Assembly: GCA_964016885.1 (NCBI GenBank)
Contig: OZ024745.1
Coordinates: 63,798,001 to 63,862,000, forward strand
Reading direction: 5' to 3'
Length of the DNA stretch: 64,000 nt
DNA from: Eledone cirrhosa
Lineage: Eukaryota
The translations under genes and the position numbers were made by a program. The notes below the pieces were generated by a model, which ran no database searches, was not told the DNA's origin, and saw nothing but the letters and a program-made list of their open reading frames with translations. The stretch's first letter is position 1. Every line of letters starts with the position of its first letter. Shown piece after piece: positions 3,028-52,965 of this stretch.

Positions 3028-5278
3028 GCCATCAGGTCCTTCCCAGCTAGCAGATGCGGAGGTGTTGATGGTCTCCGACCAGGCCACTTCAAGGAGTTGA
3101 CATCCCTCTTCTCCGCTGAGGCCGGGCGCCGCCTTCTGAGTGCAATTGTGGCGCTCACCAATAGGCTCATTCATGGTGCCCTCGACCCTTACGCTTGAGG
3201 CCTCTTTTTTTCGGCCAGCCTCACCGCTCTCAGGAAGAAAGAGGGTTGCATACGCCCCATTGCTGTGGGCAATGTCTTCCGGAGGCTGGCTGCCAATGTG
3301 ATCTGCAAGTCCGTCACACACGAACTGGGTGAGGAGTTTAGTCCGGTGCAACTGGGTGTCGGCGTGTCCGGTGGCTGTGAGAGAGCCTGTCATGTAATCA
3401 GGCAGTTCTTCAGCAGCTGCCCATCGGTACCGGCATCCAGGGACTCCAGGCACCTCATTGACAAGCTTGACATGAGGAATGCCTTTAAGTCTTTACGCCG
3501 GAATCATCTGCTCGAGACCTGTCTCAGCCGAGCCCCCTCTGCCTACCCGCTGGCCTACCTGTCATATGGAGCCCCGAGCATGCTCCTAGCTGCTGATACG
3601 GTCATACCCTCGGCTACTAGGGTCCAACAGGGCGACCCTTTGGGACACCTCCTATTCGCCCTTGGTATTGACCACATCGCCCGGAGTATCACGGCCCCTC
3701 TCAACGTTTGGTATCTGGATGATGCTACGTTGGGCGGGCCCGTACGGACGGTCAGCCAAGACCTTCAATCGGTGATTCCTGTCCTGCAGGTCAACTCGGC
3801 CTAGTCGGAGGTGGTAAACGTCAGCCTCGATGCTGCGAGCTTTGCAGCCCAGTCTTGGACGTGCGGTCCATTCTCCGCCAGGTTCAGGTGACCCCCAAAG
3901 AGGATCTCCTCATCCTCGGGTCACCGATCCACCGGCCAGCCATCCGCTCCACCATCAGGTCCAGGCTTCAACAGCTCCAGACTCTCACGAGCCGACTGGG
4001 CTCTATTGACGGCCACCCAGCTCTCTTTCTGCCGAGGAACTGCTTCGCCATGCCGAAGCTCCTCTATACACTCCGCAGCGCTCCATGCTACACCCAGACA
4101 TCTCTCCTCGCTGACCTCGATACTTGTATCCGAGCAGCAGCCGAGGGAATATGCAACGTCAAGTTTGACGACATAGGGTGGAAACAGGCCACTTTACCGG
4201 TCAGGTATGGCGGCCTAGGCCTCCGATCCCCGATCTCACTAGCTTTGCCGGCGTATCTTTCGACGGTAACCTCGTGCAGCGTCCTCGTCAGCAGGGTTTT
4301 TCAAAACACAACAGAACCCTCTGTGTTCAGAGAACGTGGTGCCGCCTGTGAGACGTGGGACCAGCTGGGACTTAGCCCAGTAGACGTCCCTCCTCCTTCT
4401 TCCCCTGTTGACGTCAAGTCCCCCCAACACACTTGGGATGCCATCCAGTGCAGCCTGGCCTCAGACAGGCACGCGCCAGCTCGACCAGCACCGCCTTGCT
4501 TATTTTCGTGCGGCCTCCAAACCCCACAGTGGTGCCTGGCTCCATGCTCTGCCCTCCTTCTCCACTGGCACGCAGCTAGACAACCATAGACTGCGAATCG
4601 GCGTTTCCCTGAGGCTCGGCCTCCGGATCTGCCAGCCACACCAATGTCGCTGCGGTTCCACCGTGGATCTTTCGGCCTCCACTCGCTTTCCTGTCGCCAC
4701 CGTGCCGGCCGCATTCCACGCCATACTGCCCTCAACGAGGTCATTATGCATGGCTTGGACGCTGCAGGCTTCCCTTCCCAGCTCGAGCCGGTGGGGCTGG
4801 ATCGAGGGGACGGCAAAAGGCCAGATGGCATGACCATCTTCCCGTTCCGTGGTGGCAAACCCCTCGTCTGTGATGCCACTTGCACCGATACTTTCTGCAG
4901 CTGCAACCTGGTGCAGTCTGCGACTGACGCTGGTTCTGCTGCACGTCGGGCTGAGGGGGCCAAACTCCTCAAATACCGGTCGTTCTCCGACAGATTTGCG
5001 GTCGTTCCCCTGGCAGTGGAAACTTCTGGTGTCCTCGGCCCCATGGCTACCTCCTTACTAACCACCATAGGCGCTAAGCTGGCCAGCCGCAGGTTAGGGC
5101 CCCGCGAGTTGGAGTGGCTTTTCCAGCGCGTCTCCCTTGCCGTCCTCCGGGGAATCACCTTCTTCATTCAGTCTGCCGGGGCTGTGGGTGGGCCCCATCG
5201 TGTACCAATACATTAGTTAAATACCATTCTTTCATCGTTACAACTTATATCCACATTAATGACGTATTATCTTTGTTG
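3028..5278 (+). mobile_element. 5'-truncated CRE-clade non-LTR retrotransposon (RT + restriction-like endonuclease), frameshifted
   Basis: ORFs 3265-3804, 3855-4589, 4408-4833 and 4644-5216 carry RT motifs PIAVG, QLGVG, QQGDPLG and WYLDD, then ATLPVRYGGLGL, a CRCG..HSLSC zinc knuckle and RH..RPDG..CDAT..VPLAVET RLE motifs. The GC-rich block is flanked by CCACA (3023-3027, 5279-5283). Confidence 0.85.
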
Positions 5279-5475: not shown

Positions 5476-5950
5476 TATAAACGGAAAAAATGAAACGAAA
5501 TTTCATTTCCCACTCTTAGTACGGCTGTTACTTAAATATAAGTATGTACACGTACTAAGAGTGGGAAATGAAATTTCATTTCATTTTTTCCGTTTATCGT
5601 TTTCGGTGCACCCAGCCGATTAACCCACTCGATATGCAAATTGAGCTACTCAGCCGTTAATGTGCATAAGGTAAGTATATACGTTCAACAATCTGGCAGA
5701 AAGATATACGTTGTTGACGATAGCTAATAAGCTTGAAACTAGTACAGCGTTCCTTTGTCAGTGTTGAACAAACGAGAACGGTGGTTGCTAGACACTACGG
5801 CTTAATACGGGATGTTTGTTTACAAACACACCGAGCATTATAATAAATTTTCGGTGAATCCATACGTACATATATATATGTGTGCATATATGTATATATA
5901 TATACATACTACTGTACGTCTGTATACATATATGAATGTACGTGTACCTA

Positions 5951-12097: not shown

Positions 12098-15000
12098 TTA
12101 GTCCGTTTGAGCACACATGGCCTCTTGGCGTAAACCCTCTTGGTAGACAATGTTCTTTGTTTTCCCTCGTGGAGTGCACGCGAAAAGACTTCCTTTGCTC
12201 CTCACTCTGGAGCAGCCTACGTATAGTTGACCGTGTGATAAGCATGATTCTACCAAGTGAAGTCCTGCCACCGAAAGTGTCTGCCCCTGGAACTTGTTGA
12301 TAGACATGGCAAAACTTATGCGAAGCGGAAATTGAAGGCGTCTGAAGCTAAACGGAATTTCTGCACCTGATAGAATGAGTGGTATTCTGGGAACGAACAC
12401 ATCATCTCCTTTTCCACACCCTGAAATAATGGTGGCTTCACCGACGTGCTGCATTACCTTCTTTACAACCAGACGTGCGCCGTTGCAAAGTTTTGGAGGG
12501 TCCAAATTCCTAAGAAGCATTATTGGCGCTCCAAATTTTAGTCATAACCAATTCACGTCTTGTTAGTTATCAGGAATACTGGGAAACACTTGAGCCCTGA
12601 GGTCCTCGACTGTGTTGACAGTGGTACAAATCGGATTGAGTGACAATTCACCATCTCCATCGAGGGTGATACCATCGCCAAGTGATAAAATATCCAAAGC
12701 AAACTCTGCTGCCAGTTGTTCGCCGTGCAGTTGGGCTCTCATGTTAGTTGTCAGGGTCAACGTTGTTACCTTTTGCCACAACGGAGAGGACTTGAGGCAC
12801 GCCTGGACTTCATCTGCCCTGGTTCTATTTGGAGTGACGGGAAGGGTCTGTCGGAAGTCCCCGGATAGGAGAATGGTGACGCCTCCCATCGAAGTCTGGT
12901 AGTCTCTGATGTCTTGCAAAGTAGTGTCTAGTGTTTCCAGAGCTCGTTGATGGGCCATGGCCATGGTACATTCATCCCACACTATGAGCTGACACGTTTG
13001 GAGAACCAGTCCCTTGTCCGAAGTTTTGCTAATGTTGCAGGACGGTGTTTCGGATGTTGCCAAGTTCGGGGGGAGCCGAAAAAGCTGAGTGCGCTGTCTT
13101 ACCGCCGGGTAACAAAGTTGCAGCAATACCAGAGGATGCCACAGCTAACGCGATGTACTTGTGCTGCCTCACTTTGTCTAGAAGAAGCTTAGTTACAAAC
13201 GTTTTTTCTGTCTCTCCAGGTGCAACTAGGAAGAAGATTCCCCCTTTCCGGTTTCGCACATGGTCGAAAATAGTGTTGTAGGCCCGCTGCTCTCCCGGAA
13301 GGAGTTTTGGTTCTGTTTCACGGACGTATTAGGAAAGAACGTCAATATCATAGGCTGTTTCGGGAATGAGCTCTGTCGGAAGGTTATCCATCTCTGTCCG
13401 TACTGGTTGCGGCAGCCCGTACGTTGGCAAAGTATTCCCACCCAGTGAAACAGTCCTGTTTTCCACGTCAATCAAAGCACAGTTGTAGACGTCGTCACTG
13501 GCAGCATCAAGGCTAGGATACCGCAATTGTGCTTGGTGGTAAAAGTCTTCCGCCAGGTCATCTCTATACTTCAACCACAGAGAGACGGGATCTGAGACTT
13601 CGCAAATGTGCAGGAGCACTGCAAAGATAGCCCTGAGACTTTTCGGCGACTGTGAAACGGCAGCCTCCGCGAGCATAGCATCCCACTGTGCGCAGTCTTC
13701 TAACAGTCCATGTCTTAAGTAGGCCTCTCTGAGTGAGTGTAGGTTAAATCCACGCCCGAATGGACCATGAACCATGTTTGCCCGCACTATGTCAAAGAGG
13801 TTTTTGTCAACAGAGGGATTCGGGAGTTCTGCAGACATAAACCTGTCAATGTTGATGGAGTTAATCTTTGTTGACATCCAAATAACAATATGGGCATGTG
13901 GCAGACCCCTTTTTTTCCACTCAACTGTGTACATATCGCATTTTACAGGCCCAAATACCTGTCCTTTCTTGATAAGGTCCATGAGTTTCTGTAACTTCAG
14001 TCGGAAGACCCTGGCTAGAAGGTCATGCCTGTCTTTGACCTTCTGGCCTTGGAAGAGTTCAGCTTCGATCTCCTTCCACTTGGGGTTTCAGGTAAAGGTA
14101 ATGAATAAGTCGGGCCGACCGTAATGACGCACATATGTCTTGGCGTCTTGCGTCCTCTCATGCATATACCGCGGACCCCCGGTGAAGGTGGAAGGCAAAA
14201 TGCACACCTGGCCTAAGCCTCCCGGAGCAACGTCATTGTTGATACCATCTCGAAGGTGAGTGTAACTCTCTGAACGCAGCTTTTGTTGGTTGTACCTGAT
14301 ATAGCGCAGCCTCTCGGACTCCATTTTGGCGCACATGTCGACTACAAATTGATAGAATAGCTCGCGTGAACTGTGGAGATGATTCAGACAGTTGCTTCGG
14401 GTCATGAAGCAGTATGCGTAGAACTCCATGCAGGAAACTTGTTTGTTGCTACTCTCGTCTGGTCTGTGAGGATTACGCTGGTGAATGCCCAAATGGTAAC
14501 CGTCTTCTCCATTCACGAAGAGCAAGGTGTATTGTAGCGCGTCATAGGATCTGTGGGTTTCGCTGATTCGCTTAAGAGTGTTGTCGCGACACGTGAGAAC
14601 GATGTCCCTTGGATTTTTCTGCTCACCTTCAAGCACAATGGCGATTTCGTTGCATGTAGGCGGATTATAGCGGCCAGCATGCTCTCCAGATGGCCGTTTG
14701 TCAGCATTAATGACAACATTAAAATTGGGGATTGATGCTGTTTCTAACGCATACTTAAAATTCTGCACATAACTGTTTTTTTAATGTAACATCTCTTGGA
14801 GAAATTAGTGCCGGGTGATATACTGTTTCGTATTCTCGCTTGCTCTTGGTAGCTGCCAACGAAGTACAGTTGAAGAAACTCAGACTCTTAGTTCACAACA
14901 CACTGCCAAATATTTCTACGCTGGGCGATACTCTCCAGGTGATCCCGTCAGGCGTCGGAGGTCTCAGAAGCTCGGGCGGCAGCAGTTGGTGCAGCATTTT

Positions 15001-30060: not shown

Positions 30061-31180
30061 CTCTATGTATATATATATATGCCGGTCCAGCAAAATGTAA
30101 GACTGATAGCGAATGGTCTTCTAAATGTTTTTTAATTAAACATACGGTATATTGCCAAATATATTATACATCGCTATTTCAGAGCACCAATCCTAATACC
30201 TAATTTTTGCTGGATTCTATAAGAACCCAGCTTCTATCATTTTAGGCAAAGGCAGGGGAGTGCATCGTTTTGATAAACACCAAACAGCGAGACACCGACT
30301 GTCAGCCTCTCGCCCTACCTTTGTCGAAAATAAGTAAGTGACATAGTCACTACTTTAAAACTGATAGTGACTGGTCTTCTAAATGTTTTTAATGAAACAT
30401 ACGGTATATTGCCAAATATAATATACATACATTCATATATAGGGCTAGATCGTATAACGGAAATAAAAGACCATGTGACCTCTGCGCCGCTGAGGCCCTG
30501 GAAATACTCTACGCTACAGACCACATCTTAAACAAAAAATCTGAGGCAATTTCGGCTTGTAAACATAAATTGCACAAAACTTTCCTGTATTACAGCCCCA
30601 CGTTATACCCTAACGGATAGCACGATCTATACGTAGATATTTTACGTCTTGATGTGGGAGCTAAGTATATGTTTTGTTTATTCCTTTACTTATTTGCATA
30701 GGTAAGTATATATTACCCGTATGTTTTGTGAAGGTATGTATACCTTCTCGTACGTATATTTGACTGTTATAGCGTATAATTTTTACATATTCTGGTATTT
30801 AGGGTTTGGCTATGTGTATACGGGAGTTTTGCGTCCGCGTGAGTGTGCAGGTTCGTACGTATGGTGGGTGTGTGTATATGTGTACTTCTTGTTTTAGTTG
30901 ACTTACGTCTCCGAACATTCGTGTATTTATATGTAGGTATGCGTGTGCGCTTGTTATATACGTATTTATTTACTTATATACGTTTATATAATTATTTATT
31001 TATTTGTACACAAGCATACACACACACACATATTTATATGTGCGTGGTTTTGTATACCCATGGTAAGGTTTTGCATATGCTTGTGTATGTACGTATCTGT
31101 TTGCGTGTATGTATTTATTTGTTTCTATTACTTCTGTATTGTATTTATTTACTTTGTTCTTAACTCTGTAGCGGAGATTC

Positions 31181-35587: not shown

Positions 35588-36482
35588 CGAGGTGTGTCAG
35601 AAAAGTTCCAGGACTGATGTCACAAAAGATTTATTTCAATCCCAAACTTCACACTAAGAGTTTTCTCCTTCAAAGTAATCTCCCTGGAGTCTAATGCACC
35701 TTTCCATCCTTTTCTGCCACGCTTGCATGCACTCCAGGAAGGATTCTTCCGGGATCCTCTGCAGTTCCGTCGTCACGGCCTTTTTGATGTCGTCCACGTC
35801 TTCAAAACGGGTTCTCTCCGGGTCGTACTCGAAGATCCATGACTCATCACTAGTGATGACTGTCCCTAGAAAGTCTGGTTCGGTTTCAAGACGCTCGAGG
35901 ATGTCCTGGTACACTTGCATGCGTCGAGCCTTCTGATCATCATTCATCAGTTTTGGCACCATCTTCGCGCAGACTTTCCGCATGTCCAAATCGTCAGTGA
36001 GAATCTTCCAGACGCTGTCCCGATTCATGCCCAGCTCATTTGCCATGAGTCGAACAGTCAGCCGACGATGGCTACGCACCATCTGACTGACGCGCTCAAT
36101 GCTGACCTCAGTCCTGGTTGTTGCGGGCCTTCCGCTCCTGGGTCATCTTCCACGTCCTCGCTTCCTTCTTTAAACCTCTTGCACTACTCCAACACACGTG
36201 AGCGTGACATCGTCTAATCTCCATAAACTTGCTGCAGCAATCCCTGTGCTTGTGACGGAGTTTTCAAGTTTGTTCGTTGCTCTGTGCTCATTGCTTGACG
36301 ACCTGAAACAGAGGACATGTATATAAAATTATGAAGAAAAAAGTTTGATCGCTGCTGAGAGCTAAGATTACAGTTACATACTCCAGGGGAATTACTTTGA
36401 AGGAGAAAACTCTTAGTGTGAAGTTTGGGTTTGAAATAAATCTTTTGTGACATGAGTCCTGGAACTTTTCGGACACACCTCG
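35588..36482 (-). mobile_element. mariner transposon, internally deleted
   Basis: TA-CGAGGTGTGTC.GAAAAGTTCCAGGAC inverted termini. Transposase remnant RKVCAKMVPK..VITSDESWIFEYDPE is fused directly to RFEDVDDIK..W.KRMERCI..GDYFEG, so the YSPDL region is missing. Confidence 0.92.
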
Positions 36483-44634: not shown

Positions 44635-44852
44635 TATAGATATAGATAGATAGATATATATATGGATGTATATGTATATAGAAAAGAAATATGATTTCGC
44701 TTCAAGCATAGCTTTATACAATATGTATAGAAATTTCGTATTTCAAAAGAAATACGATTTTAGGAAGCCGTAGCTATGCGAACACCGTGTGGGGGGGGGG
44801 GGGGGGGTGCTAACACCCTCTGGTAGGTGTTGTCCAGAAAGCAAGGGAGACA

Positions 44853-44896
44853 ACCGTCTATGCATTTCAGGCTTGACTGGCCATCGTCAGGACGAT
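44853..44896 (-). ncRNA. Minimal hammerhead ribozyme
   Basis: atcgtc-CTGACGA-tggc cagtcaa gcct-GAAA-TGCA-TA-gacggt. Confidence 0.85.
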
Positions 44897-45093
44897 CCCT
44901 CCCACTGCTCTGCAACTGCTGGACTTGAAAACAGCTGAGAATATATACTTTTCTCGTCTGTGTAAATGAGGTGATTAATCTCATTTGCATATGAAGCTGC
45001 ATAAGTTGGCTCAACTTATAATAGAAATGAAATAGGATTTCGCTTCAAGCATATCTTTATACAATATGTATGAGCCAACTTATGCAGCTTCAT

Positions 45094-45170
45094 ATGCAAA
45101 TGAGATTAATCACCTTATTTACACAGACGAGAAAACTATATATTTTCGGCTGTTTTTAAGTCCAGCAGTC
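45094..45170 (+). promoter_or_regulatory. Putative promoter: octamer, TATATA, initiator-like GCAGT
   Basis: ATGCAAAT at 45094-45101, TATATA at 45137, and the A of GCAGT at 45167 (30 nt after the TATA start). Mirrored at 44990/44947/44917. Confidence 0.5.
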
Positions 45171-45187
45171 GCAGAGCAGTGGGAGAG

Positions 45188-45231
45188 ATCGTCCTGACGA
45201 TGGCCAGTCAAGCCTGAAATGCATAGACGGT
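45188..45231 (+). ncRNA. Minimal hammerhead ribozyme
   Basis: atcgtc-CTGACGA-tggc cagtcaa gcct-GAAA-TGCA-TA-gacggt, with palindromic ATGCAT stem III. Confidence 0.85.
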
Positions 45232-46299
45232 TGTCTCTCTTGCTTCTGCTGGACAACACCTGAGGGCGTTATCCCCCCCCCCCCCGGTGTTCGCATAGCT
45301 GCGACTTTCTAAAATCGTATTTCTTTCGAAATACGAAATTTCTCTCTCTATATATATATATAGAGAGAGAGAGAGAGCGAGAAAGTCGTTTGTGTATGTA
45401 TACCTATACGTATTCATCATGTGTGTGTACGTATACCTATACGTATTCATCATATACATTTTCAGTTTTATACATATTGGTGTTACCTTATATATACCAG
45501 CTCACCTCGACCAAAGTATGGTTCAACATAGATTTGAGGAGAAAGAATACAGCTCTTTAACTCATAAACGACAATCGGTCACGATATCTGGAACCTTCAA
45601 ATCTGTAAAATATTCTTTCGATTCAATGGATAAATGATTGCCCAACGACCAACGAAATCTCCTCTTTACCACCGTTCCACCGGGAAGGTTGCTGATCAAA
45701 CATAAACTCAAAATTAAGCAAAGGAAACAGTGTTTTACACATTTTAGGTCATTTGTTTTGAAATGAACTTTTCCTGGATATTATTTCAACGGTATTATGT
45801 AATCTTAATTGAAATAAATTTGAATTTTTGTAATGATTGTGTGTAGCAAGCACTCTTAATAGTGCATGGGATAAAAAAGACTTGCAATATGCATTTTGAG
45901 AAAGAAATACTATTAATCATATGACAACCCATTTAATATCAAGAGTCAAATTTGCCATATTGTCATACACATTCAGAAATAAAATAAACCAAGAAGAGTA
46001 CCATTATAAAACAAAATAAAAAAGAGTTATCACCTAATAAAATTGTCATAAATCATATAAATGTAACTAAACAGAAATGAAGGAATGGGGTTAGTTCTAA
46101 TGAAATATGACGATATTCTCAAGACATTGCATTCACATATTTTTCGATACAGTTACATCGACTTAGTTATGCAAATTATAAAGAGCATTAAATCACTATT
46201 CTGTATTCACAGTGGCAGCTCAACGATATGAAACATGCCCTCAAGAATAACTCGAGGTAGCAAGGAAGTGAAATATCAACTGCAAAATAATATATAAAT

Positions 46300-50032: not shown

Positions 50033-50103
<71 letters not shown>

Positions 50104-50345
50104 AGTATGCATGTATACGTACATACATATATGTATACAGACGTACAGTAGCATGCACATATATATATATATATACATATATACATACATATGCATACAG
50201 GTACACATACATATATGCACGTATCAGTTTAGCGGCGCTTATTATAACGTCGCTTTGTTCGTTTGTAAACAAACTGAACAGCCTGAATTTATGCCATACG
50301 GTGTTAAGGCAACCACGTCACCTTTTTGTTCAACACTGACACAGG

Positions 50346-50390
50346 AACGATGTACTAGTTTCAAGCTTGTTAGCTATCATCAGCACCGTT
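50346..50390 (-). ncRNA. Minimal type-I hammerhead ribozyme (unit 1)
   Basis: aacggtg-CTGATGA-tagc taacaa gctt-GAAA-CTAG-TA-catcgtt; 7-bp stem I, GUA triplet. Confidence 0.9.
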
Positions 50391-50396
50391 TACCCA

Positions 50397-50471
50397 TCTG
50401 CCAGATAGTTGAACGTTCGAAAGTATATACTTTCCTTATGAAAATTAACGGCTGAGCAGCCTAATTTGCAT
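50397..50471 (-). promoter_or_regulatory. Putative promoter in each array unit: octamer, TATATA, GCAG
   Basis: Octamer at 50471-50464, TATATA from 50429, and the A of GCAGA at 50399. Confidence 0.45.
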
Positions 50472-50823
50472 ATTGAGTGAGTTAAATCGGTCAGGCATAC
50501 CGAAAACGATAAATTGAAACAAAATGAAAACGAAATTTCATTTCTCACTCTTAGTATGGCACTTACTTAAATGTAAGTATGCATGTATACGTACATACAT
50601 ATATGTATACAGACGTACAGTAGCATGCACATATATATATATATATATATATACATATATACATACATATGCATACAGGTACACATACATATATGCACGT
50701 ATCAGTTTAGCGGCGCTTATTATAACGTCGCTTTGTTCGTTTGTAAACAAACTGAACAGCCTGAATTTATGCCATACGGTGTTAAGGCAACCACGTCACC
50801 TTTTTGTTCAACACTGACACAGG

Positions 50824-50868
50824 AACGATGTACTAGTTTCAAGCTTGTTAGCTATCATCAGCACCGTT
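50824..50868 (-). ncRNA. Hammerhead ribozyme (unit 2)
   Basis: Identical to unit 1. Confidence 0.9.
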
Positions 50869-51296
50869 TACCCATCTGCCAGATAGTTGAACGTTCGAAA
50901 GTATATACTTTCCTTATGAAAATTAACGGCTGAGCAGCCTAATTTGCATATTGAGTGAGTTAAATCGGTCAGGCATACCGAAAACGATAAATTGAAACAA
51001 AATGAAAACGAAATTTCATTTCTCACTCTTAGTATGGCACTTACTTAAATGTAAGTATGCATGTATACGTACATACATATATGTATACAGACGTACAGTA
51101 GCATGCACATATATATATATATATACATATATACATACATATGCATACAGGTACACATACATATATGCACGTATCAGTTTAGCGGCGCTTATTATAACGT
51201 CGCTTTGTTCGTTTGTAAACAAACTGAACAGCCTGAATTTATGCCATACGGAGTTAAGGCAACCACGTCACTTTTTTTGTTCAACACTGACACAGG

Positions 51297-51341
51297 AACG
51301 ATGTACTAGTTTCAAGCTTGTTAGCTATCATCAGCACCGTT
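51297..51341 (-). ncRNA. Hammerhead ribozyme (unit 3)
   Basis: Identical to unit 1. Confidence 0.9.
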
Positions 51342-51768
51342 TACCCATCTGCCAGAAAGTTGAACGTTCGAAAGTATATACTTTCCTTATGAAAATTAAC
51401 GGCTGAGCAGCCTAATTTGCATATTGAGTGAGTTAAATCGGTCAGGCATACCGAAAACGATAAATTGAAACAAAATGAAAACGAAATTTCATTTCACACT
51501 CTTAGTATGGCACTTACTTAAATGTAAGTATGCATGTATACGTACATACATATATGTATACAGACGTACAGTAGCATGCACATATATATATATATATACA
51601 TATATACATACATATGCATACAGGTACACATACATATATGCACGTATCAGTTTAGCGGCGCTTATTATAACGTCGCTTTGTTCGTTTGTAAACAAACTGA
51701 ACAGCCTGAATTTATGCCATACGGTGTTAAGGCAACCACGTCACCTTTTTGTTCAACACTGACACAGG

Positions 51769-51813
51769 AACGATGTACTAGTTTCAAGCTTGTTAGCTAT
51801 CATCAGCACCGTT
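51769..51813 (-). ncRNA. Hammerhead ribozyme (unit 4)
   Basis: Identical to unit 1. Confidence 0.9.
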
Positions 51814-52240
51814 TACCCATCTGCCAGAAAGTTGAACGTTCGAAAGTATATACTTTCCTTATGAAAATTAACGGCTGAGCAGCCTAATTTGCATATTGAG
51901 TGAGTTAAATCGGTCAGGCATACCGAAAACGATAAATTGAAACAAAATGAAAACGAAATTTCATTTCACACTCTTAGTATGGCACTTACTTAAATGTAAG
52001 TATGCATGTATACGTACATACATATATGTATACAGACGTACAGTAGCATGCACATATATATATATATATACATATATACATACATATGCATACAGGTACA
52101 CATACATATATGCACGTATCAGTTTAGCGGCGCTTATTATAACGTCGCTTTGTTCGTTTGTAAACAAACTGAACAGCCTGAATTTATGCCATACGGTGTT
52201 AAGGCAACCACGTCACCTTTTTGTTCAACACTGACACAGG

Positions 52241-52285
52241 AACGATGTACTAGTTTCAAGCGTGTTAGCTATCATCAGCACCGTT
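52241..52285 (-). ncRNA. Hammerhead ribozyme (unit 5)
   Basis: One change in loop II only. Confidence 0.9.
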
Positions 52286-52965
52286 TACCCATCTGCCAGA
52301 TAGTTGAACGTTCGAATGTATATACTTTCCTTATGAAAATTAACGGCTGAGCAGCCTAATTTGCATATTGAGTGAGTTAAATCGGTCAGGCATACCGAAA
52401 ACGATAAATTGAAACAAAATGAAAACGAAATTTCATTTCTCACTCTTAGTATGGCACTTACTTAAATGTAAGTATGCATGTATACGTACATACATATATG
52501 TATACAGACGTACAGTAGCATGCACATATATATATATATACATATATACATACATATGCATACAGGTACACATACATATATGCACGTATCAGTTTAGCGG
52601 CGCTTATTATAACGTCGCTTTGTTCGTTTGTAAACAAACAGAACAGCCTGAATTTATGCCATACGGTGTTAAGGCAACCACGTCACCTTTTTGTTCAACA
52701 CTGACAGTAAGTGCCATACTAAGAGTGAGAAATGAAATTTCGTTTTCATTTTTTTTCAATATATATATATATATGTGTAGATAAATCTACCAAGAGTTTA
52801 CGGTAGTGTCCAATCCGTATGAAGAACTCAATGTAATCCGGATATCATGGAAAGAAGAGATGCAATGAAAAATCACTTTCGGTGAAAGATAAACGGAATA
52901 CAGAGTCAAGATAAAATTTTTTTTTTTTTTTTTTAATATTTTAAAATTTTTAATTTTTTTAATAT

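What the first reader, a model, noticed from the sequence alone, without database searches (positions are those of the whole stretch)
45094..45231. Same octamer-TATA-initiator geometry upstream of the HHR in two unrelated families
Seen: the 45-kb family has ATGCAAAT, 35 nt, TATATA, then the A of GCAGT exactly 30 nt after the TATA start, in both arms. The 472-bp family has ATGCAAAT, 34 nt, TATATA, then the A of GCAGA also exactly 30 nt on. The intervening sequences are dissimilar. The predicted start lies ~10-20 nt before HHR stem I, and the 45-kb spacer has a PSE-like TCACCT. Known: the octamer is the Oct/POU site of snRNA and histone H2B promoters, and newt satellite 2 uses snRNA-type promoter elements. 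Inference: these elements carry their own promoter-ribozyme cassette, where the promoter at the end of one unit drives the next and the HHR trims the 5' end.
Basis: partly seen in the sequence, partly recalled or inferred. Interest (0 to 1): 0.8.

Follow-up and report, generated by a model that had tools for sequence, protein, structure and literature searches.

The report
Ribozyme repeats carrying snRNA-type promoters
Tens of thousands of short hammerhead-ribozyme repeats in this animal genome carry upstream motifs that match, in sequence and spacing, those in front of the host's own small nuclear RNA genes, so the repeats likely borrow that always-on promoter to make the RNA by which they would spread.

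Summary
The two families are not unrelated: older copies bridge them, so this is one inherited cassette in a non-LTR retrozyme superfamily with Penelope-type inversions. The host's own genes give independent support. U6 has the octamer at -76 to -78 and TATA at -30. U1, U2, U3 and U5 have a YCAGT-type element at -55 to -58 and a TATA-like box near -30. The repeats put a similar element 26-27 nt before TATA (best site in 10 of 18 representatives; weak in the 45-kb family itself). A distal host motif (-258 to -289) recurs inside ribozyme stem I, landing at -261 and -258 from the next unit's predicted start in two families. Best reading: an snRNA-type, likely Pol II, promoter built across head-to-tail units, as reported for newt satellite 2. 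Transcription and self-cleavage were not tested. The cassette is not general to hammerheads: 0 of 13 other types have it.

The parts
44678..45343 (.). Family A retrozyme insertion: a minus-strand arm of about 1.2 units (45071 to 44678) joined head-to-head to a plus-strand arm (about 45071-45343), flanked by (TA)n
   Evidence: arms 95% complementary over 175 nt; 44678-44728 repeats 45021-45071
45094..45101 (+). Octamer, -73 from predicted +1; followed by N-AG as in host U6
45110..45121 (+). PSE-like site (weak match), 27 nt before TATA
   Evidence: score -5.0, site p 0.055; not the best site in the scan
45137..45142 (+). TATA-like box at -30
45167..45167 (+). Predicted transcription start (inferred from host spacing; untested)
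45160..45256 (+). Type I hammerhead with extended stem I: core 45194-45200, stem II 45201-45215 with U-U at its base, GAAA 45216-45219, palindromic stem III, predicted cut after 45225 (AUA)
   Evidence: sequence; fold z -2.3; no Rfam hit
45230..45242 (+). DSE-like motif in the 3' strand of stem I; would lie at -261 of the next unit in a tandem
   Evidence: (8.8 bits, p 0.004 over 45 offsets)
44983..44990 (-). Left-arm octamer
44942..44947 (-). Left-arm TATA-like box; predicted +1 at 44917
44859..44890 (-). Left-arm hammerhead, core to predicted cut site (after 44859)
44842..44854 (-). Left-arm DSE-like motif
   Evidence: 15.1 bits, site p 8e-6
50099..52706 (-). Family B tandem array, 5.5 units of 472 bp, five octamer-PSE-TATA-hammerhead cassettes
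50353..50471 (-). One family B cassette: octamer 50471-50464, PSE-like 50455-50444, TATA 50429-50424, predicted +1 50399, core 50383-50377, predicted cut after 50353 (GUA)
   Evidence: PSE best site at 26 nt, site p 0.005
5634..5790 (+). Decayed family B copy: octamer and TATA intact, shorter spacer to GCAGA, mutated core

Best explanation
These are non-coding hammerhead repeats (non-LTR retrozymes) of one superfamily whose units carry motifs matching the host's snRNA promoters, and these motifs likely form a working SNAPc-type promoter, most likely for RNA polymerase II. Shown: octamer-N-AG (as in host U6), a YCAG-type element 26-27 nt before a TATA-like box (as in host U1/U2/U3/U5), and in families A, H and I a copy of the host distal motif inside the 3' strand of ribozyme stem I. 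Inferred: in head-to-tail copies the end of unit n starts transcription 16-27 nt before the core of unit n+1; the polymerase reads through the next promoter; two (probably dimer-assisted) cuts release a monomer that contains the whole promoter; it would circularise and be reverse-transcribed by a Penelope-like element into (TA)n tracts, giving permuted, tandem and inverted copies. The distal motif would work only across a unit boundary, which may constrain unit length (324 and 310 nt). A proximal octamer may compensate for a weak PSE (A), and is absent where the PSE is closer to the host form (H); this is speculation.
For: Pattern counts 20,601 vs 11 and 16,982 vs 15 for the PSE-type pattern without octamer; octamer-TATA spacing of 10-27 nt gives only 299, and of the 100 rows listed many are deletion copies or second TATA hits of the same families. 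Host U6: octamer at -76, -77, -78 and TATA at -30 at 3 independent loci. Host U1/U2/U3/U5: YCA(G/A/T)T at -55 to -58 in 16 of 16 non-redundant genes used, no proximal octamer. A matrix from those 16 peaks at 26-27 nt before TATA in 10 of 18 repeat representatives; the octamer searches did not require this element. RNase P RNA (T-run end) has the same element 32 nt before TATA, and U6 scores none at 26-27. Distal motif at -258 to -289 in 14 of 20 host genes; found 32-36 nt after the core in 5 of 18 representatives plus the left arm; lands at -261 (A) and -258 (H). GC then purine at TATA+30 in 9 of 18 while the distance to the core varies 16-27 nt. Penelope-type marks: inverted partner at 18 of 30 A loci, (TA)n at the 3' end of 19 of 29 scored. 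T6-T7 runs before the octamer in 16 of 24 B loci (7 from one array) argue against Pol III read-through. Precedent: newt satellite 2 (passage in PMC2220036).
Against: The families are homologous, so shared geometry is one inheritance, and the 18 representatives are not independent. The PSE match fails or is weak in A itself, one A' copy, G, E, F, I and one C copy (8 of 18); the matrix also fails U3 when U3 is left out. The distal motif is absent from B, C, D and G, and where present it is base-paired in stem I, so RNA structure could produce it. No host Pol II-type gene examined has a proximal octamer; no host gene with both octamer and YCAG was found (U4, U7, U11, U12, 7SK, MRP not searched). 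Only 3 U6 loci and 1 RNase P gene define the Pol III spacing; 14 other solitary U6 matches lack the proximal octamer and are assumed to be retrocopies. The one young autonomous Penelope-like family examined lacks the cassette and shows no clear link to family B.
Confidence: 0.62

Rival explanations
1. The cassette is a U6-like type 3 RNA polymerase III promoter.
For: Octamer-N-AG upstream of TATA is seen only in U6 among the host genes examined (3 loci). A and H units and the window's B array have no T-run longer than 4 on the sense strand in the units checked.
Against: Octamer-TATA spacer is 32-36 nt in the repeats against 38-40 in U6; PSE-TATA distance is 26-27 as in U1/U2/U3/U5, not 32 as in RNase P; T6-T7 runs in 16 of 24 B loci.
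Confidence: 0.15
2. An ordinary mRNA-type Pol II promoter (POU site plus TATA plus initiator, histone H2B-like) that does not use SNAPc.
For: Clear TATA and octamer; weak PSE match in family A (site p 0.055). The H2B comparison is recalled, not tested.
Against: Related lineages have strong PSE matches at host spacing (A', D: p 0.001 or less over three offsets); octamer-less H keeps PSE, TATA and the distal motif.
Confidence: 0.1
3. The motifs are an inherited relic or an RNA-structure by-product; transcripts come from read-through of outside promoters.
For: One ancestry; the TATA-to-core segment and the distal-like motif are both paired in the predicted RNA; AT-rich DNA gives TATATA cheaply.
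Against: Three motifs match host snRNA promoters at host spacing; octamer, YCAG and TATA persist between lineages whose 3' bodies no longer align directly (A vs B 282 of 500 shuffles); family E keeps the geometry with no other detectable similarity.
Confidence: 0.13

Closest known systems
Newt satellite 2 (Notophthalmus; Coats, Zhang and Epstein 1994)
   Same: Tandem unit of about 330 bp with a hammerhead and an snRNA-type promoter used by Pol II (stated in PMC2220036, passage; 330 bp from search listing).
   Different: The original paper was not held; its octamer-plus-PSE layout is recalled. Here there is a TATA-like box, the octamer abuts the PSE, and a non-octamer distal motif overlaps stem I. 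Homology to the newt element was not tested.
Metazoan non-LTR retrozymes (Cervera and de la Pena 2020, PMC7229834; Li et al. bioRxiv 10.64898/2026.07.22.740005)
   Same: Type I hammerheads in 300-470 bp non-coding tandem units, thousands of copies, U-U at the base of stem II as in one axolotl family, co-occurring Penelope-like elements.
   Different: Neither text names an endogenous promoter ('promoter' occurs twice as T7 in the first, never in the second). Circular RNA was not shown here.
Penelope-like element pseudo-LTRs (PMC4209133, PMC8557442, PMC11167929, PMC2377424)
   Same: Type I hammerhead with palindromic stem III, inverted 5' partial copies, partial tandems, AT-rich targets.
   Different: Drosophila virilis Penelope uses an internal TATA-less promoter (abstract). 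No ORF is attached to the cassette in the loci examined; the autonomous family found has a variant core and no cassette.
Host snRNA-type genes (U1, U2, U3, U5, U6, RNase P RNA of this genome)
   Same: Distal motif near -260, YCAG-type element near -57, TATA-like box at -30, U6-type octamer.
   Different: No host gene examined combines the proximal octamer with the Pol II-type spacing; the repeats must read through rather than stop at a 3' box or T-run.
Schistosome hammerhead satellite (Ferbeyre 1998)
   Same: Hammerhead repeat with its own promoter (passage in PMC2220036).
   Different: Reported as a Pol III promoter; not snRNA-type.

Membership tests
Non-LTR retrozyme | Type I hammerhead core and stems | tested here: met
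   CUGANGA, stem II, GAAA, NUH and stem I present; no Rfam gathering hit
Non-LTR retrozyme | Short non-coding tandem units, many genomic copies | tested here: met
   472-bp array, 324-nt A unit and 310-nt H unit; no protein-like ORF in the units
Non-LTR retrozyme | Self-cleavage and circular monomer RNA | not testable with these tools
   needs bench work or raw RNA reads
Non-LTR retrozyme | Mobilised by a Penelope-like element | tested here: inconclusive
   inversions 18 of 30, (TA)n ends 19 of 29; young autonomous family present but no shared ends seen
Pol II snRNA-type promoter (host U1/U2/U3/U5) | PSE-like element 26-27 nt before the -30 box | tested here: met
   best site in 10 of 18 representatives including B; weak in A itself
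Pol II snRNA-type promoter (host U1/U2/U3/U5) | Distal motif near -260 | tested here: inconclusive
   present at -261 (A) and -258 (H) across the unit boundary, absent in B, C, D, G; overlaps stem I
Pol II snRNA-type promoter (host U1/U2/U3/U5) | SNAPc dependence, capped start, Pol II | not testable with these tools
   none
Pol II snRNA-type promoter (host U1/U2/U3/U5) | 3' box | not tested
   a look-alike in family D seen by eye only
Type 3 Pol III promoter (host U6, RNase P) | Proximal octamer-N-AG plus TATA | tested here: met
Type 3 Pol III promoter (host U6, RNase P) | Longer spacing (octamer-TATA 38-40; PSE-TATA about 32) | tested here: not met
   32-36 and 26-27 in the repeats
Autonomous Penelope-like element | RT plus GIY-YIG ORF between pseudo-LTRs | tested here: not met
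   no such ORF belongs to the cassette units; nearby ORF pieces belong to separate insertions

The most novel reading that the evidence does not exclude
Animal retrozymes owe their constitutive, high expression to captured snRNA promoters, and in this lineage the promoter is split across the unit boundary with its distal enhancer written into the ribozyme's own stem I, so only dimers fire, unit length is tuned to enhancer spacing, and lineages trade a proximal octamer against PSE quality. Tens of thousands of such SNAPc/POU cassettes would then be a genome-wide source of transcription starts.
Probability: 0.3. Interest if true: 0.8.

Novelty: new variant of a known kind. Interest (0 to 1): 0.62.

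Why it matters
Retrozymes are reported to be expressed strongly in all tissues tested, which the authors call atypical for retroelements (PMC7229834, Discussion), and the retrozyme papers I read name no promoter. A host-matched snRNA-type promoter gives a direct, testable answer and would extend the newt result to a distant animal. It also explains how an upstream promoter survives retrotransposition. As a by-product, the comparison outlines this animal's snRNA promoter elements and three U6 promoters usable for guide-RNA expression.

Tried and rejected
RNA evidence: no RNA holder listed; laying four contig sets of unknown kind showed presence only and cannot show a start. Rfam scan: no hit. 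'Unrelated families' rejected. 'General to hammerheads' rejected: of 13 other core types, 12 lack a TATA 36-62 nt upstream, 1 has TATA without PSE score, none has an octamer within 140 nt (I picked these after setting aside A-I). Autonomous parent: ORF pieces beside B copies belong to a separate young Penelope-like family; B lay in 4 of its 30 loci, one by selection, and only that one directly upstream; Pfam gave no family for it, so its class rests on RT- and GIY-YIG-like motifs recognised from memory. Only one autonomous family was followed. Spacings longer than 40 nt were not searched. Earlier scan notes: none. Coats 1994 and Cremisi 1992 were not held. Literature searches listed no paper on snRNA-type promoters in mollusc or other invertebrate retrozymes; only top listings were seen, subscription papers and supplements were not.

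Full report
Observation. The coordinates and spacings are right in both arms of the 45-kb element (family A) and in all five units of the 472-bp array (family B). The octamer alone is not enriched in the window (11 vs 6.0 expected); 8 of the 11 belong to these elements, including a decayed B copy at 5634. The hammerheads are type I with a U-U pair at the base of stem II and a palindromic stem III; predicted cuts are after 45225, 44859 and 50353. Rfam did not call them, and the folds are only modestly better than shuffles (z -2.3 and -1.9 for the long forms, -1.5 and 0.0 from the predicted start). Cleavage is untested.

What the elements are. The genome is 3.0 Gb; I suspect a cephalopod from recalled genome features, which no call confirms. 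Family A has about 2,250 candidate places. Of 30 loci, 18 hold an inverted partner and 19 of 29 scored end in (TA)n, marks described for Penelope-like elements (PMC8557442 and PMC11167929, passages). The A unit is about 324 nt. The pattern octamer-N32-38-TATAWA-N40-62-CTGANGA has 20,601 matches against 11 for the reversed control; a shorter first gap gives 299 against 11. These fit the non-LTR retrozymes (PMC7229834, passages and Discussion; bioRxiv 10.64898/2026.07.22.740005, part 1 of 5 and passages).

The families are related. A second search gave 582 matches against 9 and showed further lineages A', C, D, E and F. A and B are alike outside the required motifs (z 3.5-3.9, 0 of 500 shuffles), though their first 3' stretches are not (282 of 500). 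Older copies L254 and L255 score z 6-8 to A, 10-12 to B and 7-10 to D. So the shared geometry is inherited, and copy counts are not independent evidence. Family E keeps the geometry with no other detectable similarity (two loci seen).

Independent test: the host's own genes. U6 has ATGC(A/T)AAT-N-AG at -76, -77 and -78 with TATA at -30 at three independent loci (two solitary, one array supplying 26 of the 30 loci, 6 of them with an insertion in the promoter; the variant octamer in the array was read by eye). Fourteen other solitary U6 matches lack it and most have altered 5' ends. U1, U2, U3 and U5 have no proximal octamer but a YCA(G/A/T)T element at -55 to -58 and a TATA-like box near -30. 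RNase P RNA has the same element 32 nt before TATA and ends in a T-run. A matrix from 16 non-redundant U1/U2/U3/U5 genes, scanned over 31 offsets, peaks at 26-27 nt before TATA in 10 of 18 repeat representatives (A' one of two, B both, D both, C four of five, H); it is weak or misplaced in A, G, E, F, I and two others, and it fails U3 when U3 is left out. Separate Pol II and Pol III layouts with a conserved PSE-TATA spacing are known in insects (PMC1761439, abstract and passages); applying that logic here is inference from four Pol III-type loci.

A third element. Fourteen of 20 host genes have a TTAYCTCCCTT-type motif at -258 to -289 (none of five U5). The same motif scores 32-36 nt after the core in A (8.8 and 15.1 bits), one A' (15.8), H (19.6) and I (8.1), not in B, C, D or G. 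Measured to the next unit's predicted start it lies at -261 in A (modal 137 from 8 values, range 111-167, plus 124 from 11 of 12) and -258 in H. It is also the 3' strand of stem I, so a structural origin is not excluded. H and I came from a structure-based scan that did not ask for an octamer. H is a young 310-bp tandem family that makes up 96 of the 100 listed rows of a 16,982-match pattern (control 15); it lacks the octamer and shares its 3' body with A' (0 of 300 shuffles).

Limits. Thirteen other hammerhead-core types show no cassette. The young autonomous Penelope-like family found beside B copies (about 1,720 candidates, 96-99% alike) has a variant core and no octamer or TATA, so the mobiliser and the origin of the promoter are open. 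No host gene examined combines the proximal octamer with the short spacing. T6-T7 runs in 16 of 24 B loci favour Pol II, but A, H and the window's B array have only T4.

Mechanism. Shown: motifs, spacings, homology, copy structure. Inferred: SNAPc-type initiation at TATA+30, Pol II, read-through, paired cuts, circles, Penelope-driven insertion. In the window's A insertion neither arm has a same-strand distal motif upstream; the arms form a divergent pair with predicted starts 250 nt apart.

Comparison and verdict. Newt satellite 2 is reported to use an snRNA promoter and Pol II (secondary passage, PMC2220036; the original was not held and its details are recalled). Penelope itself uses an internal TATA-less promoter (PMC2377424, abstract). 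PMC4209133, PMC6155905 and PMC13652810 were read in passages only; the last was not relevant. My eight searches listed no invertebrate case; supplements and subscription papers were not seen. This works like newt satellite 2, is a member of the non-LTR retrozymes on the features testable here, and is a new variant: interest 0.62, confidence in the Pol II snRNA-type reading 0.62, in an snRNA-type promoter of either polymerase about 0.77.

Noticed in passing
L063, L065, L072, L079, L084-L088 (family D), about 70 nt upstream of the octamer; L073, L075 (family C): The octamer-plus-YCAG module is triplicated with a period near 33 nt in D and duplicated in some C copies, as enhancer modules often are.
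   Followed up: no
L062, L077, L079 downstream of the core vs U1 flanks L132, L135: Family D holds a stretch resembling the sequence after host U1/U2/U5 genes (possible 3' box).
   Followed up: no
L087, 27 nt upstream of the octamer: One old family C copy has the host distal motif directly upstream of its octamer.
   Followed up: no
L258, L259 (G000:C1:168437812, 219106064): A further lineage with octamer, 23 nt, TATATA and a core-like CTGANGA; no similarity to A, B or D; hammerhead stems not checked.
   Followed up: partly
window 26076 (-), 32812 (-), 49930 (+), 28414 and 28733 (-): Other hammerhead-like cores of Penelope type without the cassette; a related type has a recalled YY1-like CAAGATGGCG upstream (L005, L050, L065).
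   Followed up: partly
L196 and L185-L214; window near 30699 (-): Young Penelope-like family with an open frame of at least 659 aa and a variant core (CAGAAGA); a piece of its 3' UTR lies in the window and supplies one incidental octamer.
   Followed up: partly
L096, L097, L099-L102 (U6 array, G000:C19:31.78-31.84 Mb): Six U6 array units have a repeat of about 190 nt inserted between octamer and TATA.
   Followed up: no
window 12098-14780 (-): Broken reading frames resembling a Helitron Rep/helicase (recalled resemblance).
   Followed up: no
window 3199-5216 (+): Broken reading frames resembling a non-LTR reverse transcriptase with a restriction-like nuclease; 35654-36142 (-) resembles a mariner transposase piece (recalled resemblance).
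   Followed up: no
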